Origin: an uncultured Methanosarcinales archaeon
GTDB taxonomy: Archaea; Nanobdellota; Nanobdellia; Woesearchaeales; GW2011-AR4
Reading direction: 5' to 3'
Assembly: GCA_964438385.1 (NCBI GenBank)
Contig: CAYTKI010000011.1
Location: forward strand, 48,739 to 112,738
Length of the DNA: 64,000 nucleotides
The notes below the pieces were generated by a model that was not told the origin of the DNA, did no database searches, and saw only the letters and a program-made list of their open reading frames with translations. This document shows positions 10,870 through 46,054 of the stretch, one piece after another (the stretch's first letter is position 1; each line of letters begins with the position of its first letter). Both the position numbers and the translations under genes were made by a program.

Positions 10870-11351
10870 AAATGGACCTGTTCCAGAAAATCATTAATAT
10901 GATAATCAATAGGATGAGGGTTTTTGTCAATAACGGGACGGCAAAGGTGCTCTCAAAGCCACACTTCATGACAAGAATTTTCGTGAACAGAGGGGCCCAT
11001 CTTGAGATAGGGATGAACACCAGCATCCAGCCCTACACAGTCGTTAATGTCGGAAGAAAAGTCAGCATCGGAAGCGATGTCATGGTCTCGCCGCATTGCT
11101 TCATCTCTGATTTCCAGCACGACTTCAAGCTCACGGGAAAGGAGAGGATGGAGAGCATGAAATACATGGATTGCGTGATAGACGATGGTGCATGGATCGG
11201 CTTTGGAAGCGTCATCATCGGCTCAAAGATCGGAAAGAATGCCGTAATTGGGGCGAATTCGACGCTCATCAACAAGGACATCAAAGACGATCATCTGTTT
11301 TTTGGTGACAGCAGGCTTGAGCAGACCCCAGAGCAGCTTAAGATTCGTTAG
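10866..11351 (+). CDS. Left-handed beta-helix (hexapeptide-repeat) acetyltransferase
   Basis: Hexapeptide repeats (VSIGSDVMV, AWIGFGSVIIGSKIGKNAVIGANSTL). The ATG overlaps the upstream stop (ATGA). Confidence 0.7.
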   Translation: MKMDLFQKIINMIINRMRVFVNNGTAKVLSKPHFMTRIFVNRGAHLEIGMNTSIQPYTVVNVGRKVSIGSDVMVSPHCFISDFQHDFKLTGKERMESMKYMDCVIDDGAWIGFGSVIIGSKIGKNAVIGANSTLINKDIKDDHLFFGDSRLEQTPEQLKIR

Positions 11352-12427: not shown

Positions 12428-12532
12428 GTCCTATGGTCCCCCAATTCCGTTTAAATAAGTTTGCTCGGGAAAGCCGCCATTCAGTTGCCAATCACTCTCA
12501 TTCTTGCCTGGCAACCAACACCCGCTCCCCAA

Positions 12533-13669
12533 TCATTTATTTTTTGAGGGCATATTGCTTTTCAAAATATTATCTCTGAGAATCTCTGCCACAAGCGTAT
12601 GGCCTTCCACGTTCCAATGACCATCAACAATGAAATAGAATGTGTTGTTGATGTTTTTCTGCCTGAACTCATCTAGGGGGTTGATGGCAGCAATGCCTTC
12701 TTTTTTGAGCCAGGGGACAAGCTCATCCTGCACTCTTGTCCTATTGATATCATTTAGCCCATTTTCCGAAGCGAATTTTTGCATCATCCCCTCATCAACC
12801 TGCTCTTTTGCCGGACTTACAAGAACCATAAAGTGGATATTTCTTTCATCAAGATATTTTTTCATGGCATCAAGCAGAAGCAAGGTCTTTTGGAATGCCT
12901 GCTCATACTCTTTGCTTTGCTCATTGGAATAGATTAGCGTATTGAAGTCCGCTTTTGGATCTTTTGTAGAAGGGTTGAGAAGGTGCATCCCAATGAGGAG
13001 GTTACTGATTTTCTTATTATCAATAACCGAGAAATAGAAAAGTGAATAGAGATGGGAATGCCAGCTCACCATATTCCTCACTTTCAGGGAGAAGCCCACA
13101 TCCTTTTTTGGAGTTTGGATAAGGGTGCTATTTTGTACCTCGAAGAGATTATACTTCACGTTCTCCTTAAGATCATTTGGAAAAAAGCTGAGAACGACCA
13201 TATCTGGGTGGAATGCCGCAACAGTATCCCTGAGAAGGAGGTATTCCTGCTCGGTACCATAGGCCGATATCCCAAAATTCATAACTTCGTATTTTCCTCT
13301 ACTATTATTTCCGTTGAGGAGCCGCTCAAGTACTTTGGCAAATGCCTCATTCTCCTCAACCCCAAACCCGAACACAAATGAGTCGCCGAGAACCGCGATT
13401 CTTTTCACGCCTTCTGGCTTCTGCACAGCATACTCCCTATCCCGAAGTCCTTGGGAGCTAATCCTCACATGCGTCTTGAATTCTAGGCGCTGAAGTACAG
13501 TTGAAATTCCCGGCTTGTGCTCAAATATCTTTTCAGAATCAAGCTGAGTGATATTGAGGTTTTGCGGGAAGAAGAGGCGGAGAAAGATTTCTGTAAGGAG
13601 GAATATAACCAGCAGCGCAGCAATTGCGACTGCAGCATTTTTCAAGAAACCCCCCATGCTCCAATTCAT
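12533..13669 (-). CDS. Membrane-anchored SGNH/GDSL hydrolase (paralog 1), inserted between E1beta and E2
   Basis: N-terminal TM helix, then block I RIAVLGDSFVFGFGV and C-terminal DGHWN (catalytic D/H). Confidence 0.7.
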   Translation of the reverse strand: MNWSMGGFLKNAAVAIAALLVIFLLTEIFLRLFFPQNLNITQLDSEKIFEHKPGISTVLQRLEFKTHVRISSQGLRDREYAVQKPEGVKRIAVLGDSFVFGFGVEENEAFAKVLERLLNGNNSRGKYEVMNFGISAYGTEQEYLLLRDTVAAFHPDMVVLSFFPNDLKENVKYNLFEVQNSTLIQTPKKDVGFSLKVRNMVSWHSHLYSLFYFSVIDNKKISNLLIGMHLLNPSTKDPKADFNTLIYSNEQSKEYEQAFQKTLLLLDAMKKYLDERNIHFMVLVSPAKEQVDEGMMQKFASENGLNDINRTRVQDELVPWLKKEGIAAINPLDEFRQKNINNTFYFIVDGHWNVEGHTLVAEILRDNILKSNMPSKNK

Positions 13670-13901
13670 TGCCTTTCCTTTCCTCCCTTAAAATTCCTTA
13701 CGCCACTCTGCTCTTGCCTAAAAATTGTTTATAAAAGTATCACGCGATGAGGCTGTTGCACTATCTGGATATGCCCAAAAGGAAGAAAACACCAATCCAG
13801 AAGTTTTGGTTCAGTAAAGGAATGCGCGTCCTGTTGCGCGCCACCATTGTGCGAGTGCGCAGTACAAGCGAGATAAAAAATAAACCTATACATAGAGTAA
13901 A

Positions 13902-14876
13902 TCATTCATCCAATAAGGCCAATACTGCCGCCTCTATCCTCTCTTTGTTTGGGATCAGTTTTTTCTCAAAGCTGGGATTGCAGGGAATGGGCGCATCAAA
14001 GGTGGCAATTCTCTTCATGGGAGCGTTAAGCGAATAAAAGCAGGATTCATTGATTCGTGCCATGATTTCTGCCGCAACTCCTGCCTCCTGAAAACCCTCA
14101 TCAACAATGACCACTTTTCCGATTTTCTTGACTGACGCGGAGATTGTCTCAATGTCAAGCGGCTTGATAGTGCGAAGATCAATCACTTCAACAGATACAC
14201 CATGTTTCTCAAGCTCCTGCGCGACTTCAAGGCAGTCATTGACTAGCTTGCTAAAGGAAATGAGTAGGGCATCGCTGCCAATTTTTGCCACCCTGGCTTT
14301 TCCTAACGGAATAAGTGCAGGGGCATTTGTAACATCTGCCTTTACCGAATACAACAATTTATGCTCGACAAATACAACGGGGCTGTTGTCCGCAATCGAC
14401 GCATGAAGCAATGCCTTTGCCTCAAGGGGATTTGAGGGAGCAACGATCTTGATGCCGGGAATATGCATGAGGGGGGCATACAATGATTTGGAATGCGTCG
14501 CCCCATACCCCCGCCCGGCCCCTGCTGCGACGCGGATGACTACGGGAACAGAAGTCTTTCCGTTTGAGAGATAGTGGAAGATGCTCGCATGATTGAATAG
14601 CTGATCATATGCCAATGTCACAAAATCCATGAACATGAGTTCCACAACGGGGCGAAGCCCCTGAATTGCGGCTCCAACGCCAAGCCCAACGATTGCCGCC
14701 TCCGACATCGGCGTGTCGATGACTCTTTTGCTTCCGTATTTGTCAAACAGCCCTTTCGTCATGCCAAAGCACCCGCCATAGACTGCAATGTCCTCCCCTG
14801 CAAGAAAGACATTCTCATCATTTGCAAGTGCCTCATCAAGGCCTTCCCGAATCATCTCCCCATAGGATTTCATCAT
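13902..14876 (-). CDS. 2-oxoacid (pyruvate/acetoin) dehydrogenase E1 beta subunit
   Basis: Transketolase-like pyrimidine-binding and C-terminal domains. Overlaps the E1 alpha gene by 4 nt. Confidence 0.9.
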   Translation of the reverse strand: MMKSYGEMIREGLDEALANDENVFLAGEDIAVYGGCFGMTKGLFDKYGSKRVIDTPMSEAAIVGLGVGAAIQGLRPVVELMFMDFVTLAYDQLFNHASIFHYLSNGKTSVPVVIRVAAGAGRGYGATHSKSLYAPLMHIPGIKIVAPSNPLEAKALLHASIADNSPVVFVEHKLLYSVKADVTNAPALIPLGKARVAKIGSDALLISFSKLVNDCLEVAQELEKHGVSVEVIDLRTIKPLDIETISASVKKIGKVVIVDEGFQEAGVAAEIMARINESCFYSLNAPMKRIATFDAPIPCNPSFEKKLIPNKERIEAAVLALLDE

Positions 14877-15814
14877 GGCGCGTACACATTCTCCAATAAC
14901 CTGCTCTCCTCCTCTTCAGGAAGCGCAATGACTTCGTCCGCTATGGTGTTTACAGTTGCAGTGCATTCTTCTTTGAATGCATTAATCGCTTCCCTCGTGG
15001 TTTTTCCGCTGTCAATAAGTTCATTTTCCATGGCCGGAACAGCATCCTTTCCGAACCAGAACTGCTCTTCTTTCTTGTCGCGGTACAGGTTCTGATCGTT
15101 TTTCGAGTGGCCATGGTGCCTATACGTCTGCACCTCGATGAATCGGGGGGAGGGGGTTTTCCGCATGTCACTGATGAATGTTTTTGCTGCCAAATCGAGC
15201 TTGTTGTAGTTATTTTCAGGTATGGTCTCGCAAATGATGCCAAATCCTTCTACCCTCTTCTTGATAGTTGCAGAAAGAACGCGATTGACATGGGTTGACA
15301 TTGCGTAAAAATTGTTCTCGCACACGAAGAGTACCGGAACGTCAAGGACTTTTGCCATGTTGAGTGCCTCAAGCGCAAATCCCTCATTCATGGTCCCGTC
15401 CCCAAGGTATGCAACAACAATGGAGTCCTTGCCTTTGTACTTGTCCGCAAAGGCCATGCCGTTTGCAACCGGCATCATGCCGCCGGTGATACCATTGGCA
15501 AAGAAATTGTGATCCTTTGAGCTCACGTGCTGCGAGCCTCCTTTGCCCCTGTTATACCCGATTTTCTTGCCCAGAAGCTCTGCGAGAAATAGGCGAACAT
15601 CAAGCCCTTTGGCAAGAGCATGCCCATGGCCGCGGTGCGTGCTCGTGACCGCATCCTCATCAGTGAGGTATTGGGAGATGATGACGGGAATAAACTCCTG
15701 GCCTATGCAAAAGTGCGCAGTTCCATGCACCAACCCTTTTTTGAAGAGCTCATCAAGCTTTTTCTCAACAGTGCGTATGAGAAAAGTCTTCTTATAAACT
15801 TCAAAATCCATGTG
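14873..15814 (-). CDS. 2-oxoacid dehydrogenase E1 alpha subunit (TPP-dependent)
   Basis: GDG TPP-binding motif (YLGDGTMNEG), HGHS phosphorylation-loop-like region (YRHHGHS). Start placed at MDFEVYKK; the 27-aa N-terminal extension in the track is probably not translated. Confidence 0.85.
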   Translation of the reverse strand, partial: HMDFEVYKKTFLIRTVEKKLDELFKKGLVHGTAHFCIGQEFIPVIISQYLTDEDAVTSTHRGHGHALAKGLDVRLFLAELLGKKIGYNRGKGGSQHVSSKDHNFFANGITGGMMPVANGMAFADKYKGKDSIVVAYLGDGTMNEGFALEALNMAKVLDVPVLFVCENNFYAMSTHVNRVLSATIKKRVEGFGIICETIPENNYNKLDLAAKTFISDMRKTPSPRFIEVQTYRHHGHSKNDQNLYRDKKEEQFWFGKDAVPAMENELIDSGKTTREAINAFKEECTATVNTIADEVIALPEEEESRLLENVYAP

Positions 15815-15880
15815 GTCTGGAGAGCCAGAAACGTTTAAATAGGTTTCTGAGGAAGCACTCTGCTTTAAGAGGGAAAATGG

Positions 15881-16099
15881 ATGGATGAAGAGCAACTCAA
15901 GGCGTTCACTGCGGAGTACTGGAAGCTTAAGCCATCAGGGGTACACGAAGGGCTTTCTTTCGATAATGTGCAGATCGCAAATTTTAGCTCCATTAAGTTC
16001 TATCGTTTCATCGCGGAAGTGGAGAAGAGATTCAAGGTCAAGGTGCACAATCTCAGTCAGATAGCCACTCTAAAGGATCTTCTCGCTAACCTGAAATAA
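15881..16099 (+). CDS. Small acyl/aminoacyl carrier protein-like protein (copy 1)
   Basis: 72 aa. The core NFSSIKFYRFIAEVEKRFKVKV aligns residue-by-residue with copy 2 at 47751..47999 (DSFNNLMLISKFEEEYNVRF) and fits a phosphopantetheine-attachment Ser followed by helix II/III. TTTAAATA sits 40 nt upstream. Confidence 0.5.
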   Translation: MDEEQLKAFTAEYWKLKPSGVHEGLSFDNVQIANFSSIKFYRFIAEVEKRFKVKVHNLSQIATLKDLLANLK

Positions 16100-16103
16100 G
16101 GCC

Positions 16104-17432
16104 TTACTTCTTTCCTTTCTGGGCAATTTCGACAAGCGCGGCATCTACCGCTTGCAAAAATGCCTCTGAAAGAGTCGGGTGGGCATGTACGGTCTTATGG
16201 ATATCTTCCAATGTGAGGTTGTTTCTGATGGCAAGCGTTGGCTCTGCTACAAGTTCCGATGCCCAAGGGCCAATGGCGCAAAAACCCTTGAGATAGTTGC
16301 CATCGTGAAATATTTTAACAAACCCATCTATGTCCCCAAGGGCGCGGGCCTTGCCGTTTGCGGCGAATCGGAAGATGCTTGAGGGAAGGGTTGAATTTCG
16401 CACGCCAACAGAGGAGATTTCAGGTAAGGTGAAAATAGCGGCAGGAATAATTGTTCCGTCAAATTCCTTTCTTTTGCCCATGAGAGTTGAGGCAGCGGCT
16501 TCTGCCTGGGCAGAAGCAAAATGCGCAAGCATGGTCAGCCCGGTGACATCACCGACCGCATAGATATTTTCCACGCTGGTCTGCATCATGCTATTGACGT
16601 GAATTCCCTTCGAATAGTTTACACCAAGTTTGTCTAATTCTTTCTTGTCAAAAGATGGCTGAACGCCGATTGCGACAAGAATCCTATCTCCCTTCACACT
16701 CTTTGCTCCATTTTCATGCAGAAATGAGATTTCATCCTCCTTAATGCCCGTTACTTTTGCTTCGGTGAAAACATTTATGCCCTCTCTTCTCATCAGGCGC
16801 AGGATTTCCTCTGAGATATCGGCATCTTCTGTCGGCAGCAGCCGTTGTGCCATCTCAATGATTATCACCTTAGAGCCAAAGGCGCAGAAGAGGGAGGCGA
16901 ATTCACAGCCGATGTATCCTCCACCGATAATGACAAGTGTTGCGGGCAATTCAGTGACTTCAAGTAGCGTTGTGCTGTTAAGGACAAAAGGATTATCTTC
17001 TGTGTGGGGAAGCGCAATTGGCTTCGCTCCGGTAGCGATGACGATATTCTTTGTCTTGAGCTCTTTTCCATTGACAACAACAGTATGCCTGTCTTTGATT
17101 TTCCCTTCTCCGGAAATGACTTCCACATTGTGCTCATTCATCACCATGCCAATACCGCGCGAAAGCAATCCGGAAACCTCATCCTTGCGCTGCATAAGGG
17201 CGGCAAAATCAATCTGCACTTCGCCAGAAATGCCTGTCCCTTGTGCTTTCTTGAGCTTTTGGAGTAGCGTTGCTGTGGCATGCAGGGTCTTTGTCGGGAT
17301 GCATCCGTAATTGGTGCATGCGCCGCCGAGCTTGTCTTTTTCGATAAGTGCAGCTTTTCCACCAAGATCCGCTACAAGGCGCGCACATTCGTATCCACCT
17401 GGCCCTGAGCCGATGATTATTGCGTCATACAT
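16104..17432 (-). CDS. lpd: Dihydrolipoyl dehydrogenase (E3)
   Basis: YDAIIIGSGPGGY...GGACTNYGCIPTK redox-active disulfide motif. 442 aa. Confidence 0.9.
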   Translation of the reverse strand: MYDAIIIGSGPGGYECARLVADLGGKAALIEKDKLGGACTNYGCIPTKTLHATATLLQKLKKAQGTGISGEVQIDFAALMQRKDEVSGLLSRGIGMVMNEHNVEVISGEGKIKDRHTVVVNGKELKTKNIVIATGAKPIALPHTEDNPFVLNSTTLLEVTELPATLVIIGGGYIGCEFASLFCAFGSKVIIIEMAQRLLPTEDADISEEILRLMRREGINVFTEAKVTGIKEDEISFLHENGAKSVKGDRILVAIGVQPSFDKKELDKLGVNYSKGIHVNSMMQTSVENIYAVGDVTGLTMLAHFASAQAEAAASTLMGKRKEFDGTIIPAAIFTLPEISSVGVRNSTLPSSIFRFAANGKARALGDIDGFVKIFHDGNYLKGFCAIGPWASELVAEPTLAIRNNLTLEDIHKTVHAHPTLSEAFLQAVDAALVEIAQKGKK

Positions 17433-17567
17433 GGAAATCAGATAAAAGGTGGAAGTGGTATTTTAAAGATTTTGTGGTGGAAATGTCCGCATAAGGGAAA
17501 AGTGATGGAGGGTAATTGATGGCAAATAATCGTTATATTTATCTATGGAAAGGGATTTTGGCTTGGA

Positions 17568-18596
17568 ATGAAAGAAAAGCAAAAGAACCTCATTGCACTT
17601 GTGGTATCCATTGCTCTCATCCTCTTCCTTGCCGAGATGATGCTGCGTTTTGTGGTGATAGGCCCCCCTCTAAAGGAAACTCCAAACTCCATGCACATTC
17701 CGCTTAACACTTCAGAACGGCTCTGGGGGCTTAAGCCAAACGAGGAAGGCATCCAGGCAGGCGCCTATTACAGGATCAACTCCCAAGGATTCAGGGATTA
17801 TGAATACTCACAAAAGAAGCCGGCAGGTGTTTATAGGATTGCCGTGATTGGTGACTCAGTCACATTTGGCAAGGGGGTTCTTTTGGAGGACACTTATACA
17901 AAGATCCTTGAGAAAGAGCTTCCTTCGCTTTGCAATAAGAAGATAGAGGTGCTCAATTTTGGAGTTTATGGCTACAACACAGAGCAGGAAGTTGCCGTTA
18001 TAAAGGAGCATGTATTGAAGTACCATCCGGACATGATAATCATGCTCTACACCCTTAACGATCCTGATGTTGAGTTCCAATTCATCCTTTCAAGAGTTGA
18101 GGAAAAAAAGACAGTGAGTGGGAGCGTCAAGAAATTCCTAAACGATCACATCTATCTCTATAAGATTGCCGCCCGCATTTACTACACACAGAGCCAAATC
18201 AAGAAAAACAAGAATTTAAGCATTCTAACTTTTTATCCGAAACTCCATAATAAATCATATCCAGGATGGAAGATGGTCGAGCAGAAATTTTCAGAAATGA
18301 GTGATTTAAGTAGATATGAAAGAATTCCGATTGTTCTTTTCATTCAGCCGGAGCTCTATAAGTTAAGCGGAGAGTATCCGTTCGCAGCCATCCATGCGCA
18401 GGTGATCGCAGAGGCCAAGGCAAGGGGAATTCCCGCCTATGATCTCTTCCCCTATTTCAAGGGAGGGAATCCGCGGGAGCTGAGGGTCAGTAATTTCGAG
18501 GATCGGCATCCAAACAAGAGGGGCCATAAGATAATCGCAGAAGGAATTATGGATATCCTCGCCAAAAATAATTTTCTTAAGGGATGCAATGCATAG
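17568..18596 (+). CDS. Membrane-anchored SGNH/GDSL hydrolase (paralog 2)
   Basis: TM anchor plus RIAVIGDSVTFGKGV. Same architecture as 12533..13669 and 19694..20851. Confidence 0.7.
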   Translation: MKEKQKNLIALVVSIALILFLAEMMLRFVVIGPPLKETPNSMHIPLNTSERLWGLKPNEEGIQAGAYYRINSQGFRDYEYSQKKPAGVYRIAVIGDSVTFGKGVLLEDTYTKILEKELPSLCNKKIEVLNFGVYGYNTEQEVAVIKEHVLKYHPDMIIMLYTLNDPDVEFQFILSRVEEKKTVSGSVKKFLNDHIYLYKIAARIYYTQSQIKKNKNLSILTFYPKLHNKSYPGWKMVEQKFSEMSDLSRYERIPIVLFIQPELYKLSGEYPFAAIHAQVIAEAKARGIPAYDLFPYFKGGNPRELRVSNFEDRHPNKRGHKIIAEGIMDILAKNNFLKGCNA

Positions 18597-19677
18597 GGAC
18601 CGAGACAAAAGCATGGAGAAGAATGGCAGCATGTGGAGAGGCAAAAAGGTTGAACTTGGGAAAAGTCCAAGAATGCTCCTCATCGCCCTCAATGGGATAG
18701 GAAATCTGCTGCTCGCAACCCCATTTCTTACAAATGGTAAGAAGATGTATCCGCGATCCGCTGTTTCTGTGCTCGCGCTTGGGGATGCCGTAAGTGTGCT
18801 TAAAGAAAGCCCTTATGTTGATGAAGTCATCATCTATCCGGAAAAGTCCTCATTTCTTGTGCGTATTGGATTTCTCTTATCGCTGAGGAAAAGGAAATTC
18901 GATGTCAGCTTCTATCCCTATCCCAATGTCAATGCCATGAGCGCGATCATCGCATTCATCATAGGGGCCAAAGTGAGGGTAAATTTCGAGTATAGGATGT
19001 TAGGCAGGTGGGCAGGCCTTTTCGACACTATCAGCATTCCTGTTGATTTGTCAAAGCACGATATCGGGAAAAACCTTGATCTTCTTGAGCCGTTCCATGC
19101 AAAAGTACTCTCGAGGGAGTTATTTATTCCAATCACAAAAGAAGACAAGAACGTTGTTGATGGGCTCTTGAAAGGAAAAATCAGGAAAGGCAATATCTTA
19201 ATCGGCATGCACGTTGGCTCAAAGGAGAGCATGCGCATCTGGCCAACAGGGAATTTCGCGAAACTCGCACAGCTCCTTTCTGTCCATAAAAACATCAAAA
19301 TCCTTCTTGTGGGAACTTCAATCGAAGAGGGGCTCATCAAGGGGTTGCAGGAATTTAATGGCAGAAATATCATCAGCCTCCTCAGCAAAGCAACGATTCC
19401 AGAGACTACGGAAGCCATCAGAAGGTGCGCGCTCTTTGTAACTACTGATTCCGGCCCTATGCACATGGCGGTTGCCGCGAAGACAAAAGTGATTGCAGTC
19501 TATCTCGGCCCAAACATCAGAAGGACTGCCCCATATGGAAAGAAGCATGTCGTATTCCTCACCAACAAGGCGACGATGGCAGAAGATGGGAACAAAAAAC
19601 ACCTCTATGTGGATAAGGTGACTCCTGAAATGCTCTATGAGCGCATCAAAAAAGAGCTGGGAAAAAGGTTAAAATAA
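18589..19677 (+). CDS. GT9-family glycosyltransferase (ADP-heptose:LPS heptosyltransferase-like)
   Basis: MLLIALNGIGNLLLATPFL, GMHVGSKESMRIWP, TTDSGPMHMAVA: GT9 (RfaF/RfaC/WaaQ-like) blocks. The true start is probably an internal Met. Confidence 0.7.
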   Translation: MHRDRDKSMEKNGSMWRGKKVELGKSPRMLLIALNGIGNLLLATPFLTNGKKMYPRSAVSVLALGDAVSVLKESPYVDEVIIYPEKSSFLVRIGFLLSLRKRKFDVSFYPYPNVNAMSAIIAFIIGAKVRVNFEYRMLGRWAGLFDTISIPVDLSKHDIGKNLDLLEPFHAKVLSRELFIPITKEDKNVVDGLLKGKIRKGNILIGMHVGSKESMRIWPTGNFAKLAQLLSVHKNIKILLVGTSIEEGLIKGLQEFNGRNIISLLSKATIPETTEAIRRCALFVTTDSGPMHMAVAAKTKVIAVYLGPNIRRTAPYGKKHVVFLTNKATMAEDGNKKHLYVDKVTPEMLYERIKKELGKRLK

Positions 19678-19693
19678 TGTAGTTTTGCGTTGT

Positions 19694-20851
19694 CTACGTT
19701 CTTTGTGCCCTTTCAAGCTCTTCTTTGGCCTGCACGAAAAGCTGCTGCGCGACAAGGGCATGCCCTTCTGCGTTCAGGTGACCGTCAATGGGCAGAAACA
19801 GCGGAGCGGAAGTATCTTTTTCCCTGAAAGCGGTGTAGACATCCACAAAAGTGATGTTGTTTTTTTTTGCGTAGTCGTATAGTTCGTCATTGGGCCGCGT
19901 CCTGCTCACTTTTCCTTCTCCAATCCGCTTCTTGTACATGGTCCATTCCGCATCGCGTATCTGGAAGCGCACCGGCAGGGCAAGGAGGATAAGCGAAATG
20001 TTGTGTTCAAGTGAGAGGGTGTGGATGGCAGAAAGCACTTTCTTGTTTTTCTCCCAATCCTTGGCGATCCCCAGGTTGTATTCAAGATCAAAGATCCGAT
20101 TTGAGGAGGACACATCAACCCATTGCGAGACGCGGGTCTTGGCAAAGACAAAAAGATGGGAATGGGTGAGTAGGCCCTCATAGAGCGAATTCACTATCCT
20201 GTTCTTGAGCAGGGGTAGTGTGCGCTTAGCGCTGCGCAGCCGGTGCTCTTCATCAACAGAATAGTAGGGTGAGGTAATTTTTTGCAGAAGTCCTTGCTCA
20301 TCACTCTCCCAAACATTGAGGGAAACATCAGTGACATCGTTATAGACAAAAAAACCGATAATGATGACATCTGGCTTGAATTTTTCCAAGGCATAATTCT
20401 TGAGATAGAGATAATAGCTGTCAAGTGAGTACCCATCGCTAAATCCGGTGTTGAACACCTGGTACGCGATTCCCTTGGAGTTGAGTATCCTCTCAAGTGA
20501 TTTAGCATAAGTTTCATTCATCTCAACCCCAAAGCCGTAGGTCATGGAATCACCCATCACAAGGACACGGGTCAAGTTGGAATGGATTGGGCGTTCATAG
20601 TCTCGAATCCCATAGGAATTGATCTCAACAGACACGTTGAAATCCCCATACACCCCGATATGGGTGTCTTTTGCCCCAGGCATGAGTGTCCAGGGAAGAT
20701 ACTCGCTCTTCTGGTAGATCTGAGGGGAGCTGTGCCTCGCAGTAGAGTAGGTTACCTGCGGCAAAAAGAGCCGAAGCGCGATCTCAAGTAGGAGAATCGA
20801 AACGAGGAGCGCTGCTGTGAGCGCAAGGATATTTTTGTGGAAGTTTCTCAT
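19694..20851 (-). CDS. Membrane-anchored SGNH/GDSL hydrolase (paralog 3)
   Basis: TM anchor, RVLVMGDSMTYGFGV, DGHLNAEGH. Confidence 0.7.
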   Translation of the reverse strand: MRNFHKNILALTAALLVSILLLEIALRLFLPQVTYSTARHSSPQIYQKSEYLPWTLMPGAKDTHIGVYGDFNVSVEINSYGIRDYERPIHSNLTRVLVMGDSMTYGFGVEMNETYAKSLERILNSKGIAYQVFNTGFSDGYSLDSYYLYLKNYALEKFKPDVIIIGFFVYNDVTDVSLNVWESDEQGLLQKITSPYYSVDEEHRLRSAKRTLPLLKNRIVNSLYEGLLTHSHLFVFAKTRVSQWVDVSSSNRIFDLEYNLGIAKDWEKNKKVLSAIHTLSLEHNISLILLALPVRFQIRDAEWTMYKKRIGEGKVSRTRPNDELYDYAKKNNITFVDVYTAFREKDTSAPLFLPIDGHLNAEGHALVAQQLFVQAKEELERAQRT

Positions 20852-20918
20852 GGAACTTTGCCCCTCAATGAATAAGGAACGCTGCTGTTGATATTGTGAG
20901 GTAAATTCAATTTCTTCC

Positions 20919-20938
20919 GTTTAAAAAGATTGTTGCGG
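20919..20938. promoter_or_regulatory. Recurrent promoter motif GTTTAAAAAGATTGTTGCGG in a divergent intergenic region
   Basis: 18/19 identical to 24337..24355. Both copies lie 63-86 nt upstream of minus-strand starts (SGNH 20851; MBOAT 24277). The reverse complement reads CAACAATC-TTTTTAAAC, a BRE/TATA-like arrangement. Confidence 0.5.
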
Positions 20939-21003
20939 AGTCCCATAAGAAAATTTAAATAAACCTCTAAATTTGGGAAAATAGATGGAAATTCGATAAA
21001 AAC

Positions 21004-21855
21004 GTGAATGCGATGAACCAAAATCTTGAGCAATTGAAGGATGTGTTATCTGCAGAAGTTGTCAGGATCTACGCGGAAGCCTTCGGAGAGCCCAAGCTGA
21101 AAAAAGCCCTTGCGTTCCTGAAAACCTATAACACGGAGTTCCTCTTGGGCCAAAGCAGGCTGAACCGAAGCAAGAATTATGAGAAAGGCAATGAGAAGGA
21201 TTTGCATGCGCTCTATTACACCGATGCGGAGTTTATGCAGTTCTACAATGACTCCCTCTTCCTCTCCTACGCCCATTGGAAGAACCATAATGCCATGCTA
21301 AGGTACTTCATCAAGATAGTCAGGAAAATCAAGCCGGAAACTGTCCTTGACGTTCCCTGCGGATCAGGTTTCTACACGCGCTACCTGAGAAAATCCTCCC
21401 GCTCATTCCCGCACATAACCTGCGTCGATGCGAGCGAGCATTCGCTGCAGTTCGCAAAAAAAATAAACAGGGATTCGCAAAATGTTTTCTATCTCAGGGA
21501 GGATTTCAGGAATATCGGAGGAAAATACGATTTCATCATCTGTGGAGAGCTCCTCGAGCACCTTGAAAAGCCAAAAGAATTGCTCGCATTCCTCCGCAAG
21601 CGCGTCAAGGAAGATGGAAAGGTCTTTTTGACCACGGCTCTTTTTTGTTATGCCCATGATCATATCTATATGTTCAGGAGCGCAAGGGATGTGAGGAGAT
21701 TGCTGAAAAAATACTTCTTCATAGAGAATGAATTGGTCCTGCCTGTCTTTGACAGCCAGAAGCTGGGGCATAATGTCCCCACAAACTATGCCTGCCTTCT
21801 GAGGCCGATAAAGACGGGCGGCAGGCAGAATAATGGGGAAGATGCTTCCTTCTAG
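21004..21855 (+). CDS. Class I SAM-dependent methyltransferase
   Basis: VLDVPCGSGFYTRYL (motif I), DFIICGELLEHL (motif II/III). GTG start in the track. Confidence 0.7.
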   Translation: MNAMNQNLEQLKDVLSAEVVRIYAEAFGEPKLKKALAFLKTYNTEFLLGQSRLNRSKNYEKGNEKDLHALYYTDAEFMQFYNDSLFLSYAHWKNHNAMLRYFIKIVRKIKPETVLDVPCGSGFYTRYLRKSSRSFPHITCVDASEHSLQFAKKINRDSQNVFYLREDFRNIGGKYDFIICGELLEHLEKPKELLAFLRKRVKEDGKVFLTTALFCYAHDHIYMFRSARDVRRLLKKYFFIENELVLPVFDSQKLGHNVPTNYACLLRPIKTGGRQNNGEDASF

Positions 21856-22829
21856 CCGGATCCTGATGCATTCCTCCGGATAATCGCGATATCTGCCGCG
21901 AGCTGCCTGGAAAATTGGGCGCTGCCCTCATCGTTGAGGTGCACGCTGTCTGCGAATAAGAAATGGTTTGTATAGTTCCAGCGTTGATAGTCCAGAAGAT
22001 AGGTATTGGAGACATTGCCGTAATAATCACCGAGAATCCCGTAAAATCCCTTTGTATCGGGAATATACCCTGAAGCGATTGAGAGATAGGTGTCTGTAAC
22101 GGGAAATTTCACCAGGATGACGGTGATGTTTCTCTTTTGCGCAAGGGCAAGCGTTTTTTGGAAGTAGTGGATCATTCCTGGGTGCAGGATGGACGCGTTC
22201 CTGAAGTGGTATGCTGCGCGCTGCGAGGCGATGCCATCCTTATCTGCGGCCATGCTAAAGCGGTCATGCATCGGCAGGTGGCCAAGCGCCATTTCCCGCG
22301 AACCTCCCTCAAAGAGAGAAGCCACGAGCTTTTCTCCCCCTCCGATTATTGGGAACGCCGATTTGATGTACTCCTTGAAGGGGTATACCTCATCAAAATG
22401 ATACCACAACTCTTCATAATCAATGAACTTGTGCCAATACCACACATCCTGTACTCTCGAAGCCCTATAGGAAGAAAAGGAGTGGAGATTAAGCGGCAGG
22501 ACGATCACCTCAGGCTCAAAGCCGGAGTCGTTAAGAAGAAAGCGGAGCTTATAGTATGTCTGCATGTAGGTTTCCCCCGCCAAGCCGTAGTTAAAGGATC
22601 CTGGGATAAACGCCGGATTCACGTCTGCCTGCGTTGATGAATCCCCGAGGAACAGAATCTTCACATCAGGCTTGCTCTTGGAGAACTGCTCATCTTGGAT
22701 CCAAAGCCCGGTTCTCTTCAGCACGTATTCTGCATACAGGGCATTAAGAAGGAGAAAAAGAACAAGAAAGAGGAGCGCAAAGGCGCCTGCATATCCCAAT
22801 GATTTGTACATTTCCTTTTCCATGGTCAA
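21852..22829 (-). CDS. SGNH-like O-acyltransferase partner protein (DltD/AlgJ-like), paralog 4
   Basis: TM anchor, ILFLGDSS block I, adjacent to and co-oriented with the MBOAT gene (4-nt overlap). Confidence 0.6.
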   Translation of the reverse strand: MTMEKEMYKSLGYAGAFALLFLVLFLLLNALYAEYVLKRTGLWIQDEQFSKSKPDVKILFLGDSSTQADVNPAFIPGSFNYGLAGETYMQTYYKLRFLLNDSGFEPEVIVLPLNLHSFSSYRASRVQDVWYWHKFIDYEELWYHFDEVYPFKEYIKSAFPIIGGGEKLVASLFEGGSREMALGHLPMHDRFSMAADKDGIASQRAAYHFRNASILHPGMIHYFQKTLALAQKRNITVILVKFPVTDTYLSIASGYIPDTKGFYGILGDYYGNVSNTYLLDYQRWNYTNHFLFADSVHLNDEGSAQFSRQLAADIAIIRRNASGSG

Positions 22830-24277
22830 AACTGGAAATAAATGAAGGGTGTTTTTTCAAATACGCCAAAGAGCAAAATGAAGAGTATGGCAAGGGCAGA
22901 GACGCTCCATTTCACCACAAGAGATCCTTTGGAAAGAGAATCCTCATGGAGCATGTCTTTCTCCTCAAGCCATTCCCAGAACAGGAGCAGTGTGATGGTG
23001 CCGAAGGAGATGGCAAGGCCATACCAGCTCAGGCCGATAAATGTTCCCCCGACAGAGAGGCTCCAGCCGCTGAGAAGATGAGTGAATATGTAGTAGGCAT
23101 CTCCCAGGGAGTTCGAGCGGAAGAGGATGTTGGAAAGGGAGAACAAAAGGAAGGTGGCAATCACTTTCAGAAGCTGTGGCATGGTATCCCACTGCTTTCT
23201 TGCAAAATAGTAGAGGAAAATCAGCAATGCCATGCACCATCCATAGATGATAAAATTCCAGCTCGCGCCGTGCCACAGGCCAAGAAGCGGCCAGCCGATG
23301 AACAGGCAGAGTGTAAAGGCGAGTGTGTGGAGTATTTTCGCATCCTGCACGAATTCCCTAGATGTTTCCTTAAGCAAAAGATAGAGCGGGATGAAAACAT
23401 AATCCTGGAACCATTTAGTGAGGGAAATATGCCAGCGGTTCCAAAGCTCAGCGATGGACTGCGCAAAAAATGGTCTTCGGAAATTCTGAACTAGGCTATA
23501 GCCCATAATCCCTGCAGTCCCACGTGCGATGTCAGAATACCCGGAGAAATCGCAGTAGATCTGAATCGTGAAGGCAAAAGCCGCCAGAAGCAGCTCCATG
23601 CCATTGTAAGACGAGGGAGAACTGAAGACAGTGACGGTGAGCAGGGAGAGGCGATCCGCGATAACAACTTTCTTGAAAAAACCAAGGGCGATGAGCTGTA
23701 GGCTGCCAAAAATGCGGGAGTTGTCCCATTTCTTTTCCTCATAGAATTGCGGAAGTAGATGTCCAGCGCGCTCGATTGGCCCCGCGACAAGCTGTGGGAA
23801 GAACGCATGGTAGACTGCGTAAATTCCAAAGTGTCTTTCCGCAGTGATTTTTTTACGGTAGACATCGATATTGTAGCTCACGGCCTGGAAAGTGTAAAAT
23901 GAGATGCCGACAGGCAGGATGAGATTGAGGGCAAGGGGAGAGAACTGGATGCCGATGTGGGAGAAGAGTTCCCTGAGCGATTCGCCAAAGAAATTCGCGT
24001 ACTTGAAGGCAAAGAGCATGCCGAAGTTGCCAAATAGCCCAAACAGAAGCAATGTTTTGCGGGTGCGTGGATTTTCCGACTTCTCCATGAAGAGCGAGCA
24101 GAAGTAGCCAATGAGTGTGGAGAGGAAAAGAAGGATGCCATACTCAAGCTTCACGCTCATGTAGAAGTAATAGCTCGCGATGAGGAGCAGCATCCAGCGG
24201 AAGCGGTGGGGAATAGTGAAATGCAGTAGCACCACAATGGTAAAGAACACTAAAAATTCAAGGGAGTTGAAGAGCAT
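22826..24277 (-). CDS. MBOAT-family membrane O-acyltransferase (AlgI/DltB-like)
   Basis: 483 aa polytopic. FYTFQAVSYNIDVYRKK, QLVAGPIER, and a conserved His region, typical of AlgI/DltB. Confidence 0.85.
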   Translation of the reverse strand: MLFNSLEFLVFFTIVVLLHFTIPHRFRWMLLLIASYYFYMSVKLEYGILLFLSTLIGYFCSLFMEKSENPRTRKTLLLFGLFGNFGMLFAFKYANFFGESLRELFSHIGIQFSPLALNLILPVGISFYTFQAVSYNIDVYRKKITAERHFGIYAVYHAFFPQLVAGPIERAGHLLPQFYEEKKWDNSRIFGSLQLIALGFFKKVVIADRLSLLTVTVFSSPSSYNGMELLLAAFAFTIQIYCDFSGYSDIARGTAGIMGYSLVQNFRRPFFAQSIAELWNRWHISLTKWFQDYVFIPLYLLLKETSREFVQDAKILHTLAFTLCLFIGWPLLGLWHGASWNFIIYGWCMALLIFLYYFARKQWDTMPQLLKVIATFLLFSLSNILFRSNSLGDAYYIFTHLLSGWSLSVGGTFIGLSWYGLAISFGTITLLLFWEWLEEKDMLHEDSLSKGSLVVKWSVSALAILFILLFGVFEKTPFIYFQF

Positions 24278-44588: not shown

Positions 44589-45005
44589 GTGAATAGCTAC
44601 ACCTATGGGGAGATTGAAGTTGGGCAATCTGCGTCATTTGAAAAAACAATCACAAAAGAGGACATTCTTTTATTCTCAAAATTGACAGGGGACAAAAATC
44701 CGCTTCATGTGGATGAAGAGTACGCAAAGCAGACAAAATTCAAGAAACCAGTTGCATTCGGGCTCCTCATCAGTTCCCTGTGGTCTACAATTGCCGGAAT
44801 GCATCTTCCAGGGAAGCATTCGCTGATACTTTCTGTGCAGTCTAGTTTCAGAAAGCCCTGCTTCGTAGGGGATACCCTGACAGTAGAGGGTGTGGTGAGG
44901 CAGAAAGTGGATGTTGGAAGCATCCTCGTCCTGGGCCTCTCAGTGAAAAACCAGACTCGCGCGATTGTTGCTGATGGGGAGATGAAAGTGCAGGTGCTAA
45001 AGTGA
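44589..45005 (+). CDS. MaoC-like (R)-specific enoyl-thioester hydratase/dehydratase (hot-dog fold)
   Basis: 138 aa. LTGDKNPLHVDEEYA...FGLL is the MaoC hot-dog signature. Confidence 0.75.
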   Translation: MNSYTYGEIEVGQSASFEKTITKEDILLFSKLTGDKNPLHVDEEYAKQTKFKKPVAFGLLISSLWSTIAGMHLPGKHSLILSVQSSFRKPCFVGDTLTVEGVVRQKVDVGSILVLGLSVKNQTRAIVADGEMKVQVLK

Positions 45006-46041: not shown

Positions 46042-46054
46042 GTGGGGAAGTCTC

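What the first reader, a model, noticed from the sequence alone, without database searches (positions are those of the whole stretch)
12533..24277. MBOAT O-acyltransferase with four paralogous N-terminally anchored SGNH hydrolases (Dlt/Alg-like acylation system)
The MBOAT (AlgI/DltB-like, 22826..24277) is translationally coupled to an SGNH partner (21852..22829). Three further SGNH paralogs with the same TM-anchor / GDS(x) / DGH architecture lie at 19694..20851, 17568..18596 and 12533..13669, and a carrier-protein-like ORF is nearby. Multiple DltD/AlgJ/AlgX-like paralogs suggest several distinct O-acylation or deacylation targets on the surface glycan, or an expanded family specific to this lineage.
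Basis: partly seen in the sequence, partly recalled or inferred. Interest (0 to 1): 0.6.

Follow-up and report, generated by a model that had tools for sequence, protein, structure and literature searches.

The report
Membrane acyltransferase pair plus three esterase-fold relatives
Inside a very large sugar-polymer gene cluster sits an ordinary two-protein machine that moves acyl groups across the membrane onto a surface glycan, next to three more distant, uncharacterised relatives of its outer half whose link to the machine is possible but unproven.

Summary
All five ORFs exist at the stated coordinates. The 483-aa MBOAT (22826-24277, -) keeps both conserved His residues and ends in FIYFQF, the FXYXXF acyl-Tyr shuttle motif of PatA/AlgI-type MBOATs, which DltB lacks. 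The next gene, S1 (21852-22829), is tightly coupled to it. S1 is a membrane-anchored SGNH protein with Ser62, Asp292 and His295, distantly DltD/DUF1574-like, and its relatives followed an MBOAT wherever the upstream gene was readable. This pair is a new member of the known MBOAT-SGNH O-acylation kind.

S2, S3 and S4 are true paralogs of one another (30-33% identity) with complete S-G-N-H blocks and an AlgX-like D-x-H block V in canonical order. They relate to S1 only at profile level (hhalign 97.9%). They are old subfamilies, not a lineage-specific expansion. Each lies in its own apparent transcription unit. Only 2 of 32 long homolog loci carry an MBOAT within 10 kb, though in both it lies co-directionally nearby. 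Whether they are transferases or esterases is undecided.

The carrier-like ORF (15881-16099) is real, but more likely serves the embedded E1/E2/E3 set and a hexapeptide transferase. No DltA was found. One metagenomic locus fuses SGNH-SGNH-AcpS-FkbH-ACP-MaoC-SDR-MBOAT-partner, hinting at a carrier-borne C3 acyl donor.

The parts
22826..24277 (-). MBOAT, 483 aa, PatA/AlgI-type trans-membrane O-acyltransferase
   Evidence: Pfam MBOAT, E 1e-12. NCBIfam DltB model, 138 bits, below its cutoff. DltB structures 6bug and 8jem, E 8e-26. Closest relatives are 36-51% identical, in Desulfococcus, Calditrichaceae, Omnitrophus and Bacteroidota MAGs.
23267..23275 (-). WHG, containing the universally conserved MBOAT catalytic His336. 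A second conserved His lies in WNRWH at 23429-23443.
   Evidence: Aligned to GFWHG and WNRWH of DltB. Coordinates.
22829..22846 (-). C-terminal hexapeptide FIYFQF (residues 478-483), the FXYXXF acyl-shuttle motif with Tyr480
   Evidence: Translation. The same F[IL]YF[QN]F* end occurs in 12 homologous MBOATs. The motif is defined in PMC12148441.
21852..22829 (-). S1, the MBOAT partner: an N-terminally anchored SGNH protein of about 323 aa, counted from the ATG at 22823. Ser62 lies in GDS (22638-22646). Asp292 and His295 lie in DSVHLN (21933-21950).
19694..20851 (-). S2, an anchored SGNH paralog of 385 aa: GDS100, N134-x-G136, N171-D172, D356-G-H358. Appears monocistronic between two + strand genes.
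17568..18596 (+). S3, an anchored SGNH paralog of 342 aa: GDS95 and D312-R-H314. Overlaps the downstream GT9 gene by 8 nt.
   Evidence: Pfam GDSL_2, E 2e-10. BLASTP to S4 6e-31 and to S2 8e-17. Coordinates.
12533..13669 (-). S4, an anchored SGNH paralog of 378 aa (374 aa in the Logan gene calls): GDS95 and D349-G-H351-W. Lies between the E1beta and E2 genes on the same strand.
   Evidence: Pfam ALGX, 39 bits, above its cutoff, and GDSL_2. BLASTP to S2, 5e-42. Gene calls in L096 and L097.
21004..21855 (+). SAM methyltransferase convergent on S1, with a 4-nt 3' overlap. A conserved neighbour of the MBOAT-S1 pair.
   Evidence: Pfam. In L099 the same MBOAT-S1-convergent-methyltransferase arrangement recurs, at 51%, 50% and 60% identity.
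18589..19677 (+). GT9 (heptosyltransferase-like) glycosyltransferase, translationally coupled to S3
   Evidence: Pfam Glyco_transf_9, E 2e-23. GT9 also lies near S-family genes in L024, L027 and L087.
24418..26061 (+). PMT_2/ArnT-like GT-C glycosyltransferase, divergent from the MBOAT
   Evidence: Pfam PMT_2, E 4e-13.
15881..16099 (+). ACP1, a divergent 72-aa carrier protein with an invariant Ser37 in FSSI
   Evidence: No Pfam or PDB hit of its own. It has 20 relatives with an invariant Ser. Seven are fused to an ACPS domain and one to a hexapeptide transferase.
44589..47999 (+). Second carrier module: MaoC-like dehydratase (44589-45005), SDR (45002-45709), AcpS (45706-46041), FkbH (46055-47758) and ACP2 (47751-47999). 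A candidate acyl-donor pathway.
   Evidence: ORFs. FkbH domain, 301 bits vs cutoff 147; AcpS, 66 bits vs cutoff 45. PP-binding, E 2.7e-5. The same genes lie directly upstream of the MBOAT-partner pair in L057.
10866..17432 (.). Embedded 2-oxoacid dehydrogenase set: hexapeptide acyltransferase (10866-11351, +), E2 (11348-12427, -), E1beta (13902-14876, -), E1alpha (14873-15811/15895, -) and E3 (16104-17432, -). It surrounds S4 and ACP1.
   Evidence: Pfam and NCBIfam. E2 has the ETEKA lipoyl site and the DHRITDG catalytic motif.

Best explanation
The region is the acyl-decoration part of a roughly 50-kb envelope-glycan (LPS/O-antigen- or EPS-type) locus.

The MBOAT-S1 pair. Genes 22826-24277 and 21852-22829 form a two-gene MBOAT-SGNH module of the PatA/PatB and AlgI/AlgJ kind. 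The proposed steps below are inferred from the published PatAB and Dlt mechanism, not shown here:
1. The MBOAT takes an acyl group from a cytoplasmic thioester donor, using His336.
2. It parks the acyl group on Tyr480 of its own C-terminal FIYFQF shuttle.
3. It hands the acyl group, on the outer face of the membrane, to Ser62 of the anchored DltD-like protein S1.
4. S1 esterifies a hydroxyl of the glycan.

The three other SGNH proteins. S2, S3 and S4 belong to a different, old and widespread family of N-terminally anchored SGNH enzymes. They are remote homologs of the S1/DltD group with the same architecture and a complete Ser-Asp-His set. They most likely act on the same or related glycans outside the cytoplasm, as position-specific O-acyl transferases or esterases. 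They are independent units that can be, but usually are not, genetically tied to an MBOAT.

The acyl donor. It is unknown. Acetyl-CoA is the default. A carrier-protein-borne C3 acyl group from the FkbH module is a serious alternative.
For: - MBOAT identity and both His motifs.
- FXYXXF at the extreme C-terminus, here and in 12 homologs. Its meaning is established for PatA and DltX in PMC12148441.
- Tight coupling to S1.
- S1 has the SGNH fold and is DltD-like. Ser and Asp are invariant in its family.
- S1 relatives lay directly downstream of an MBOAT wherever the upstream gene could be read, across several phyla.
- S2-4 are mutually paralogous, keep all SGNH blocks and give a confident SGNH model.
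- S2-4 are remote homologs of the S1 family over the full length, including the anchor helix.
- Relatives of S2-4 sit in glycan loci. Among 112 neighbours in 32 loci the commonest families were GT4, carbamoyltransferase, extra GDSL, Wzx and PMT_2.
- The surrounding window is a glycan locus with rmlABCD, Wzx, GT2, GT4, GT9 and GT-C genes and methyltransferases.
Against: - No biochemical data exist, and the acceptor glycan and acyl group are unknown.
- The periplasmic orientation of all four anchors is by analogy only. The positive-inside rule is ambiguous.
- The S1 family has His at the block V position in only 43 of 66 members, with Tyr in the rest, so its chemistry may differ from the textbook triad, although S1 itself has His.
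- Sequence or fold cannot decide between transferase and esterase for S2-4. Their best structural match, CgnD, is a slow amide hydrolase.
- Independence of S2-4 from the MBOAT rests on absence within +/-10 kb in distant relatives (21-34% identity). A distal translocase cannot be excluded.
Confidence: 0.62

Rival explanations
1. One reading: a single MBOAT feeds all four SGNH proteins. The acyl-Tyr shuttle, or S1, relays the acyl group to S2, S3 and S4, each of which decorates a different sugar or position. This would resemble AlgI passing acetyl through AlgJ to AlgX.
For: - All four lie within 12 kb of the only MBOAT seen in the window.
- S2-4 share the whole architecture of the S1/DltD group, including the anchor helix.
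- The anchor helix carries an invariant Glu and a conserved Arg one turn later, which suggests a specific intramembrane contact.
- In L087 an S-family gene follows two MBOAT-partner pairs with 7-nt gaps. In L057 two S-family genes open the same co-directional row that ends in MBOAT-partner.
- There is precedent for one MBOAT working with two SGNH-like proteins (PMC4148444, PMC9487903).
Against: - Only 2 of 32 long loci with S-family genes have any MBOAT within 10 kb.
- MBOAT and AT3 are not among the 25 commonest neighbour families.
- MBOAT-partner loci L001-L010 and L098-L102 show no S-family gene, by tblastn or by the recorded Pfam hits.
- S2, S3 and S4 sit in three separate apparent transcription units: alone, with GT9, and with E1/E2.
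- In the closest relative of the pair (L099), S2 is not at the corresponding position.
Confidence: 0.25
2. S2-4 are hydrolases, not transferases. They would be membrane-anchored periplasmic O-acyl esterases, analogous to Ape1, that trim or proof-read ester groups on the lipid-linked or nascent glycan. These groups could be acetyl, carbamoyl-adjacent or other esters. No acyl translocase would be needed.
For: - They have canonical GDS / N-x-G / N-D / D-x-H blocks typical of GDSL esterases.
- Most homolog loci lack a membrane acyl translocase nearby. This fits enzymes that remove groups installed in the cytoplasm by LbH or carbamoyl transferases.
Against: - The DltD-like architecture and the AlgX-like DxH[WL]N motif are features of transferases (PMC9487903).
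- Two loci do show tight MBOAT linkage.
Confidence: 0.3
3. Carrier-dependent variant. This PatA-type MBOAT does not use acetyl-CoA. It would use an acyl-carrier-protein thioester, as DltB does, carrying a C3 acyl group such as glyceryl, pyruvyl or lactyl. That group would be made by FkbH, ACP2, the MaoC-like dehydratase and the SDR encoded at 44.6-48.0 kb. The glycan would then carry an unusual hydroxyacyl ester.
For: - L057 has one translationally coupled row: AcpS, FkbH, ACP, MaoC, SDR, MBOAT, partner. The SDR stop lies 2 nt before the MBOAT ATG. Two S-family genes precede the row.
- L006 has MBOAT, partner, methyltransferase, ACP (GLDSMDL) and SDR in order.
- The window holds the same five-gene module, with the FkbH domain well above its curated cutoff.
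- FkbH loads glyceryl onto a stand-alone ACP from 1,3-bisphosphoglycerate (PMC7489565).
- DltB shows that an MBOAT can take its acyl group from a carrier protein (PMC12148441).
Against: - In the window the module is 20 kb from the MBOAT.
- Most MBOAT-partner loci examined have no ACP.
- The published generalisation is that shuttle-fused MBOATs use acyl-CoA.
- The acyl-ACP could instead feed a cytoplasmic acyltransferase.
- Conversion of glyceryl-ACP to pyruvyl- or lactyl-ACP by a dehydratase and a ketoreductase is recalled from polyketide loading modules and was not verified here.
Confidence: 0.25
4. A genuine Dlt-type aminoacylation system, in which a DltA-like ligase loads an amino acid on a carrier that is then passed through DltB, DltX and DltD.
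For: - The best curated and structural hits of the MBOAT are DltB.
- The S1 family profile touches DltD.
- Carrier proteins exist in the locus.
Against: - No AMP-binding/DltA-like ORF appears among the window ORFs of at least 150 aa that were scanned.
- The MBOAT has the fused FXYXXF tail that DltB lacks, so no DltX is needed.
- The DltB NCBIfam score is 138 bits against a cutoff of 375.
- ACP1 is embedded in the E1/E2/E3 set, and one of its relatives is fused to a hexapeptide transferase.
Confidence: 0.04

Closest known systems
PatA/PatB (peptidoglycan O-acetylation, Neisseria and Campylobacter), and the same MBOAT-SGNH logic in AlgI/AlgJ/AlgX, WssH/WssI and PatA1/PatB1
   Same: - An MBOAT of about 480 aa with the catalytic His and a C-terminal FXYXXF Tyr shuttle.
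- The adjacent gene encodes a single-pass anchored SGNH protein with a Ser/His/Asp set.
- It lies in an envelope-polymer locus.
   Different: - S1 is not a PatB (DUF459), AlgJ/AlgX or DHHW family member. It belongs to the uncharacterised DUF1574 / LB_356 / DltD-like group.
- The acceptor is presumably an LPS- or EPS-type glycan, not peptidoglycan, alginate or cellulose.
- The donor is unverified.
DltB/DltD/DltC/DltX/DltA (teichoic acid D-alanylation)
   Same: - The MBOAT's best sequence relatives with solved structures are DltB.
- Carrier proteins are present in the locus.
   Different: - No DltA was found.
- No DltX is needed, because the shuttle motif is fused to the MBOAT.
- The carrier proteins are not adjacent to the MBOAT.
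- The organism has LPS-type genes (GT9, ArnA-like and ArnT-like).
AlgX/AlgJ family (Pfam PF16822)
   Same: - S2-4 share the block V D-x-H-[WL]-N-x-x-G signature.
- S4 passes the Pfam ALGX threshold over profile positions 18-133.
- All are predicted extracytoplasmic glycan-modifying SGNH proteins.
   Different: - AlgX and AlgJ are circularly permuted (H-S-G-N), with a GTSYS block I and a Tyr in block III.
- S2-4 have the canonical order, a GDS block I and an N-D block III.
- They look like non-permuted cousins and have no carbohydrate-binding module.
CgnD (crocagin pathway hydrolase, PDB 8a2n)
   Different: CgnD is a soluble, slow leader-peptide hydrolase in a RiPP pathway. It has no membrane anchor and no glycan context.
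NCBIfam LA_2486 / LA_2490 families of Leptospira SGNH/GDSL-type esterases
   Same: They are the only curated families that S2-4 hit over the N-terminal anchor and block I region (E 1e-9 to 1e-13).
   Different: Scores of 36-48 bits are far below the cutoffs of 300-325. Those families are themselves of unknown function.

Membership tests
Bacterial MBOAT-SGNH polymer O-acyltransferase pair (PatAB / AlgIJ / WssHI type) | MBOAT-fold membrane protein with the universally conserved catalytic His | tested here: met
   Pfam MBOAT, E 1e-12. GLWHG and WNRWH align to the DltB His motifs.
Bacterial MBOAT-SGNH polymer O-acyltransferase pair (PatAB / AlgIJ / WssHI type) | C-terminal FXYXXF acyl-shuttle hexapeptide fused to the MBOAT (absent from DltB) | tested here: met
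   The protein ends ...TPFIYFQF*. Twelve homologs end F[IL]YF[QN]F*. The motif is defined in PMC12148441.
Bacterial MBOAT-SGNH polymer O-acyltransferase pair (PatAB / AlgIJ / WssHI type) | Adjacent gene for a membrane-anchored SGNH protein with a Ser-His-Asp set | tested here: met
   S1 overlaps or abuts the MBOAT stop. It has an anchor helix, GDS60-62 and D292/H295. It has the SGNH fold at pLDDT 93.6. The adjacency held in every relative where the upstream gene could be read.
Bacterial MBOAT-SGNH polymer O-acyltransferase pair (PatAB / AlgIJ / WssHI type) | Extracytoplasmic location of the SGNH domain | tested here: inconclusive
   The K/R counts on the two flanks of the anchors are equal. 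Orientation is assumed by analogy to DltD and PatB.
Bacterial MBOAT-SGNH polymer O-acyltransferase pair (PatAB / AlgIJ / WssHI type) | Acyl-CoA donor, acyl-Tyr and acyl-Ser intermediates, and an O-acylated polymer product | not testable with these tools
   This needs biochemistry and glycan analysis.
Dlt D-alanylation system | DltA-type adenylating ligase in the operon | tested here: not met
   No AMP-binding hit in any scanned window ORF of at least 150 aa.
Dlt D-alanylation system | DltB without a C-terminal shuttle, plus a separate DltX microprotein | tested here: not met
   The shuttle motif is fused to the MBOAT. The DltB equivalog model scores 138 bits against a cutoff of 375.
Dlt D-alanylation system | Dedicated carrier protein (DltC) serving the MBOAT | tested here: inconclusive
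   Two carrier proteins lie in the locus: ACP1 at 15881-16099 and ACP2 at 47751-47999. Neither is adjacent here. In L057 and L006 an ACP lies in the same co-directional gene row as the MBOAT-partner pair.
DltD / DUF1574 / LB_356 group of SGNH proteins (for S1) | Significant match to the family models | tested here: inconclusive
   S1 alone gives DUF1574 at E 1e-3, 19 bits against a cutoff of 29. Its profile-detected relatives carry precomputed PF27429, PF07611 and PF04914 hits. The profile hits DltD structures at E 3e-4.
AlgX/AlgJ family (PF16822) (for S2-4) | Circularly permuted block order H-S-G-N | tested here: not met
   Block I (GDS) lies at about residue 95-100 and block V (DxH) at about residue 312-358. 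The ALGX profile N-terminal part (positions 18-133) matches the C-terminal part of S4 and S2. The definition is in PMC9487903.
AlgX/AlgJ family (PF16822) (for S2-4) | Block V DXH instead of DXXH | tested here: met
   S4 has DGHWN, S2 has DGHLN and S3 has DRHPN. D356 and H358 are invariant in A1.
AlgX/AlgJ family (PF16822) (for S2-4) | Block I GTSYS and block III Tyr | tested here: not met
   S2-4 have a GDS block I and an N-D block III.
SGNH/GDSL hydrolase superfamily (for S1-S4) | SGNH fold with block I Ser, block II Gly, block III Asn and block V Asp/His | tested here: met

The most novel reading that the evidence does not exclude
A hybrid between the two known MBOAT-SGNH logics. A PatA/AlgI-type MBOAT with its own fused Tyr shuttle would be fed by a carrier protein rather than by acetyl-CoA. 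The carrier would hold a C3 hydroxyacyl group (glyceryl, pyruvyl or lactyl) made by a discrete FkbH-ACP-dehydratase-ketoreductase module. The MBOAT would then relay that group to several membrane-anchored DltD-like SGNH enzymes (S1 plus S2-4), which place it on different positions of a diderm surface glycan. The contiguous L057 operon (SGNH-SGNH-AcpS-FkbH-ACP-MaoC-SDR-MBOAT-partner) would be the compact form of this system, and the window its dispersed form.
Probability: 0.15. Interest if true: 0.75.

Novelty: new variant of a known kind. Interest (0 to 1): 0.42.

Why it matters
The MBOAT-S1 pair extends the recently established acyl-Tyr shuttle mechanism to a partner family (DUF1574 / LB_356 / DltD-like) that has no characterised member.

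The S2-4 family looks like a non-permuted cousin of AlgX/AlgJ. It is common in glycan loci across metagenomes but has no known function, so assigning it as transferase or esterase would annotate hundreds of genes.

If the FkbH/ACP link is real, it would show that shuttle-fused MBOATs are not restricted to acyl-CoA donors. It would also point to new ester decorations on Gram-negative surface glycans, which matter for serotype, phage and immune recognition.

If none of this holds, the region is an ordinary O-acylation module in a large O-antigen-like locus.

Tried and rejected
- Exact-sequence look-ups of the window MBOAT and S2 in the assembly index found nothing.
- Cluster look-ups gave no organism names or accessions, so the taxon stays unknown. 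The best clue is that several weak NCBIfam hits are to Leptospira-named families, while the closest MBOATs are in Desulfobacterota and Calditrichota MAGs.
- The genome-contig scan did not contain the source genome.
- ACP1 gave no Pfam hit and only a non-significant ACP hit in PDB (E 0.49). It was rescued only through domain fusions in its relatives.
- The promoter and terminator scan was no better than shuffled sequence, so operon statements rest on strand, spacing and overlaps only.
- The AFDB Foldseek library was unavailable.
- Literature searches found nothing useful for 2-oxoacid dehydrogenase genes in O-antigen or rfb loci, or for FkbH together with MBOAT in glycan systems.
- I rejected S2-4 as AlgX/AlgJ family members (wrong block order), a true Dlt system (no DltA, fused shuttle) and a recent lineage-specific expansion (orthologs elsewhere are closer than the paralogs are to each other).
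- A carbohydrate-binding module in S2 was looked for in the AF2 model. I saw only a lower-confidence insertion of short strands and helices at roughly residues 180-250 (pLDDT 63-76), which I read as a cap or lid rather than a separate domain.

Full report
**1. What is there**

The window from about 2.3 to 55 kb is one very large glycan-biosynthesis locus. It holds:
- a Wzx-type flippase, UDP-glucose dehydrogenase, several epimerases and dehydratases, and rmlCBDA;
- GT2, GT4, GT9 and ArnT-like/GT-C glycosyltransferases;
- an ArnA-like formyltransferase, UDP-GlcNAc 2-epimerase and several SAM methyltransferases.

All five ORFs named in the finding exist with the stated coordinates and strands.

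**2. The MBOAT and its partner**

MBOAT (22826-24277, -; 483 aa):
- It matches Pfam MBOAT (E 1e-12).
- It matches the DltB equivalog model at 138 bits, far below that model's cutoff of 375.
- It matches DltB crystal structures at E 8e-26. Both conserved His motifs align: WNRWH, and GLWHG with His336.

The acyl-shuttle motif. The protein ends in ...TPFIYFQF*. This is the FXYXXF motif that Anderson et al. (PMC12148441) showed to carry the acyl-Tyr intermediate in PatA. They report it fused to the C-terminus of AlgI-, WssH- and PatA1-type MBOATs. DltB lacks it and uses the microprotein DltX instead. Twelve homologous MBOATs fetched from other genomes and metagenomes all end F[IL]YF[QN]F*. The enzyme is therefore of the PatA/AlgI architectural type, not the DltB type.

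Coupling to S1. The S1 ORF starts either at a TTG overlapping the MBOAT stop or at an ATG 2 nt after it.

S1 properties:
- It has one N-terminal hydrophobic helix, GDS at residues 60-62 and DSVHLN at 292-297.
- Alone it gives only a sub-threshold DUF1574 hit.
- A profile of its relatives finds 246 proteins. Their precomputed Pfam hits include LB_356 (PF27429), DUF1574, DltD and Lipase_GDSL_2.
- The profile matches DltD crystal structures at E 3e-4 to 4e-3.
- In the 66-sequence alignment Gly60, Ser62 and Asp292 are invariant. Position 295 is His in 43 and Tyr in 23 members. S1 itself has His.

Conserved adjacency. Wherever the upstream gene of an S1 relative could be read, it was an MBOAT, often abutting or overlapping. 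This holds in Desulfobacterota, Calditrichota, Bacteroidota and unassigned metagenomic contigs. In the closest relative (L099; S1 50%, MBOAT C-terminus 51%) even the convergent methyltransferase is conserved at 60% identity.

The pair is therefore a conserved two-gene module and a new member of the known MBOAT-SGNH kind.

**3. The three other SGNH proteins**

Relationship to each other and to S1:
- S2 (19694-20851, -), S3 (17568-18596, +) and S4 (12533-13669, -) are clear paralogs of one another (BLASTP 8e-17 to 5e-42, 30-33% identity).
- None has BLASTP-level similarity to S1.
- Profile-profile comparison of the two families gives 97.9% probability (E 6e-13) over 298 columns. The match covers the anchor helix, block I, block II and block V.
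- 'Four paralogs' is therefore true only as remote homology with a shared architecture.

Catalytic residues. In a 15-sequence alignment the GDS triplet, N134, G136, D172, D356 and H358 (S2 numbering) are invariant. All three window proteins have them, so the first refutation criterion is not met either.

Relationship to AlgX/AlgJ:
- Block V is D-x-H-[WLP]-N-x-x-G, the AlgX/AlgJ-type spacing. The Pfam ALGX model matches the C-terminal third of S4 (39 bits, above its cutoff) and of S2 (26.0 bits against 26.5), using profile positions 18-133.
- The AlgX family is defined by a circularly permuted H-S-G-N order, a GTSYS block I and a Tyr in block III (PMC9487903).
- S2-4 have the canonical order, GDS and N-D. 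They are not AlgX family members. They look like non-permuted cousins.

**4. Are S2-4 partners of the MBOAT?**

Against:
- S2 has relatives of 43-63% identity elsewhere.
- The 98 S-family gene hits in the fetched loci split 22/27/49 by best match to S2, S3 and S4. The paralogs are old subfamilies, not a local expansion.
- Of 32 loci of at least 8 kb around S-family genes, only two have an MBOAT within 10 kb.
- A census of 112 nearest neighbours is dominated by GT4 glycosyltransferases, carbamoyltransferases, further GDSL genes, Wzx and PMT_2. Neither MBOAT nor AT3 is among the 25 commonest families.
- Loci fetched through the MBOAT or through S1 relatives show no S-family gene, by tblastn or by the recorded Pfam hits.
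- In the window the three genes lie in three different units. S3 overlaps a GT9 gene by 8 nt. S2 stands alone between two + strand genes. S4 lies between the E1beta and E2 genes.

For:
- In the two loci that do have an MBOAT, the S-family genes lie co-directionally close to it. L087 reads MBOAT-partner-MBOAT-partner-S-family with 7-nt gaps. L057 opens its long co-directional row with two S-family genes.
- The family's anchor helix carries an invariant Glu and a conserved Arg one turn later. This hints at a specific intramembrane contact.
- One MBOAT serving two SGNH-like proteins has precedent in AlgI/AlgJ/AlgX (PMC4148444, PMC9487903).

My reading is that the association is facultative. S2-4 are most likely autonomous, glycan-directed O-acyl transferases or esterases. 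Some lineages have recruited them next to an MBOAT.

**5. Carrier proteins and the acyl donor**

ACP1 (15881-16099, +; 72 aa):
- It has no Pfam hit and only an insignificant ACP match in PDB.
- It has 20 relatives among 1.8 billion representative proteins, with an invariant Ser in an FSSIRF motif.
- Seven relatives are fused to a 4'-phosphopantetheinyl transferase domain, and one to a hexapeptide acyltransferase.
- It is therefore a genuine, divergent carrier protein.

ACP1's setting:
- It is wedged between the E3 and E1alpha genes of a complete 2-oxoacid dehydrogenase set. E2 has the ETEKA lipoyl site and the DHRITDG active site.
- That set also encloses S4 and faces a hexapeptide acyltransferase at 10866-11351.
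- ACP1 more plausibly serves that cytoplasmic acylation route than the MBOAT.

The second module (44589-47999, +):
- It encodes a MaoC-like dehydratase, an SDR, AcpS, an FkbH-domain protein (301 bits against a cutoff of 147) and a conventional ACP.
- FkbH enzymes load a glyceryl unit from 1,3-bisphosphoglycerate onto a stand-alone ACP (PMC7489565).
- From my own knowledge of polyketide loading modules, not verified here, a dehydratase plus a ketoreductase can convert glyceryl-ACP to pyruvyl- or lactyl-ACP.

Links between this module and the MBOAT:
- In L057 the same genes lie immediately upstream of, and translationally coupled to, the MBOAT-partner pair. The order is AcpS-FkbH-ACP-MaoC-SDR-MBOAT-partner.
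- L006 has an ACP and an SDR just after its MBOAT-partner pair.
- This is the basis for the most novel reading, that a shuttle-fused MBOAT takes a carrier-borne C3 acyl group.

Limits on that reading:
- It rests on two loci plus a 20-kb-distant co-occurrence in the window.
- Most MBOAT-partner loci examined lack an ACP.
- Published work treats shuttle-fused MBOATs as acyl-CoA users.
- No DltA-like ligase was found in the window, so a true Dlt system is excluded.

**6. Mechanism, with shown and inferred steps**

Shown by sequence, structure prediction and context:
- MBOAT with His336 and Tyr480 in FIYFQF.
- A coupled, anchored, DltD-like SGNH partner with Ser62, Asp292 and His295.
- Three further anchored SGNH enzymes with full catalytic sets.
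- A glycan-locus setting.

Inferred from PatAB and Dlt biochemistry:
- Thioester donor, then acyl-Tyr480, then acyl-Ser62 of S1, then a glycan hydroxyl on the outer face of the inner membrane.

Unknown:
- The donor (acetyl-CoA by default, acyl-ACP possible) and the acceptor.
- Whether S2-4 add or remove acyl groups.
- The topology of the anchors, for which the positive-inside rule is ambiguous.

**7. Verdict**

- Correct: this is an MBOAT-SGNH O-acylation module.
- Overstated or wrong: 'Dlt-like', 'AlgX/AlgJ-like paralogs', 'lineage-specific expansion', and the implied four-partner system.

The core is a new member of a known kind. The S2-4 family and the possible carrier-fed variant lift it to a new variant of a known kind at best. 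Interest is moderate.

Noticed in passing
window 10866-17432: A complete and apparently functional 2-oxoacid dehydrogenase set sits inside the glycan locus. It comprises E3, E1alpha, E1beta and E2, with an intact lipoyl-Lys site and DHRxxDG motif in E2. A divergent carrier protein (ACP1) and a hexapeptide acyltransferase accompany it. One possibility is that E2 loads the carrier instead of CoA and that the LbH enzyme then acylates a sugar. One ACP1 relative is fused to a hexapeptide transferase. No other S-family locus fetched has E1, E2 or E3.
   Followed up: partly
window 44589-47999: A five-gene module on the + strand: MaoC-like dehydratase, SDR, AcpS, FkbH and ACP. It suggests synthesis of a glyceryl-derived C3 acyl-ACP for glycan decoration. 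An ArnA-like formyltransferase lies just upstream at 43480-44571 (-).
   Followed up: partly
L057 9953-20466 (metagenome contig Ga0076053_15, 635 kb): One co-directional, largely overlapping gene row: SGNH, SGNH, AcpS, FkbH, ACP, MaoC, SDR, MBOAT, anchored partner, then a carbamoyltransferase and a third S-family fragment. It is a compact version of parts that are dispersed in the window.
   Followed up: partly
L002, L003, L010, L100, L101 (Calditrichota/Desulfobacterota-type loci): In these EPS loci the MBOAT-partner pair is flanked by a FemAB/Acetyltransf_6-like gene upstream. Downstream lie a gene with only a faint D-Ala-D-Ala-ligase-C (ATP-grasp-type) Pfam hit and an unannotated gene of about 390 aa. 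This might point to an aminoacyl or peptide-type decoration route different from the one in the window.
   Followed up: no
S2-4 family alignment A1 (S2 residues 23 and 27; 78-86): An invariant Glu and a conserved Arg four residues later lie in or near the N-terminal transmembrane helix. An invariant N-S-x-G-x-R-x-x-E motif lies about 15 residues before block I. Neither is explained.
   Followed up: no
L013-L015, L057 and other S-family loci: NodU/CmcH-type carbamoyltransferase genes are recurrent immediate neighbours of S-family SGNH genes: 5 of 112 neighbours, including three near-identical contigs. In L013 the carbamoyltransferase gene overlaps the first of two tandem SGNH genes.
   Followed up: no
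L011/L012 5111-7115: The closest S2 relative found on a long contig (44% identity) overlaps a downstream LpxC-family deacetylase gene by 41 nt. It lies next to a Wzx flippase and an AcpS gene.
   Followed up: no
window 30682-33264, 35114-36757, 37673-39991, 48070-50151: Four large ORFs (547-860 aa) have no Pfam hit or only a weak one (PTPS_related). The one read in full (48070-50151) looks like a polytopic membrane protein. They may be GT-C-type glycosyltransferases or polymerases, in addition to the PMT_2 protein at 24418-26061.
   Followed up: no
window, whole: The source organism could not be named. Identical proteins occur on a 120-kb NCBI contig and in Logan assemblies of runs ERR4904393 and ERR3478687. 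Several proteins give their only curated hits to Leptospira-named NCBIfam families (LA_2486, LA_2490, LA_1612, LA_3751/3752), all far below cutoff. G+C content is about 47%.
   Followed up: partly
window 13747-14037 (+): A 96-aa ORF is called as a gene in the Logan assemblies, but it overlaps the 3' end of the E1beta gene on the opposite strand and has no Pfam hit. It is probably a spurious call.
   Followed up: no
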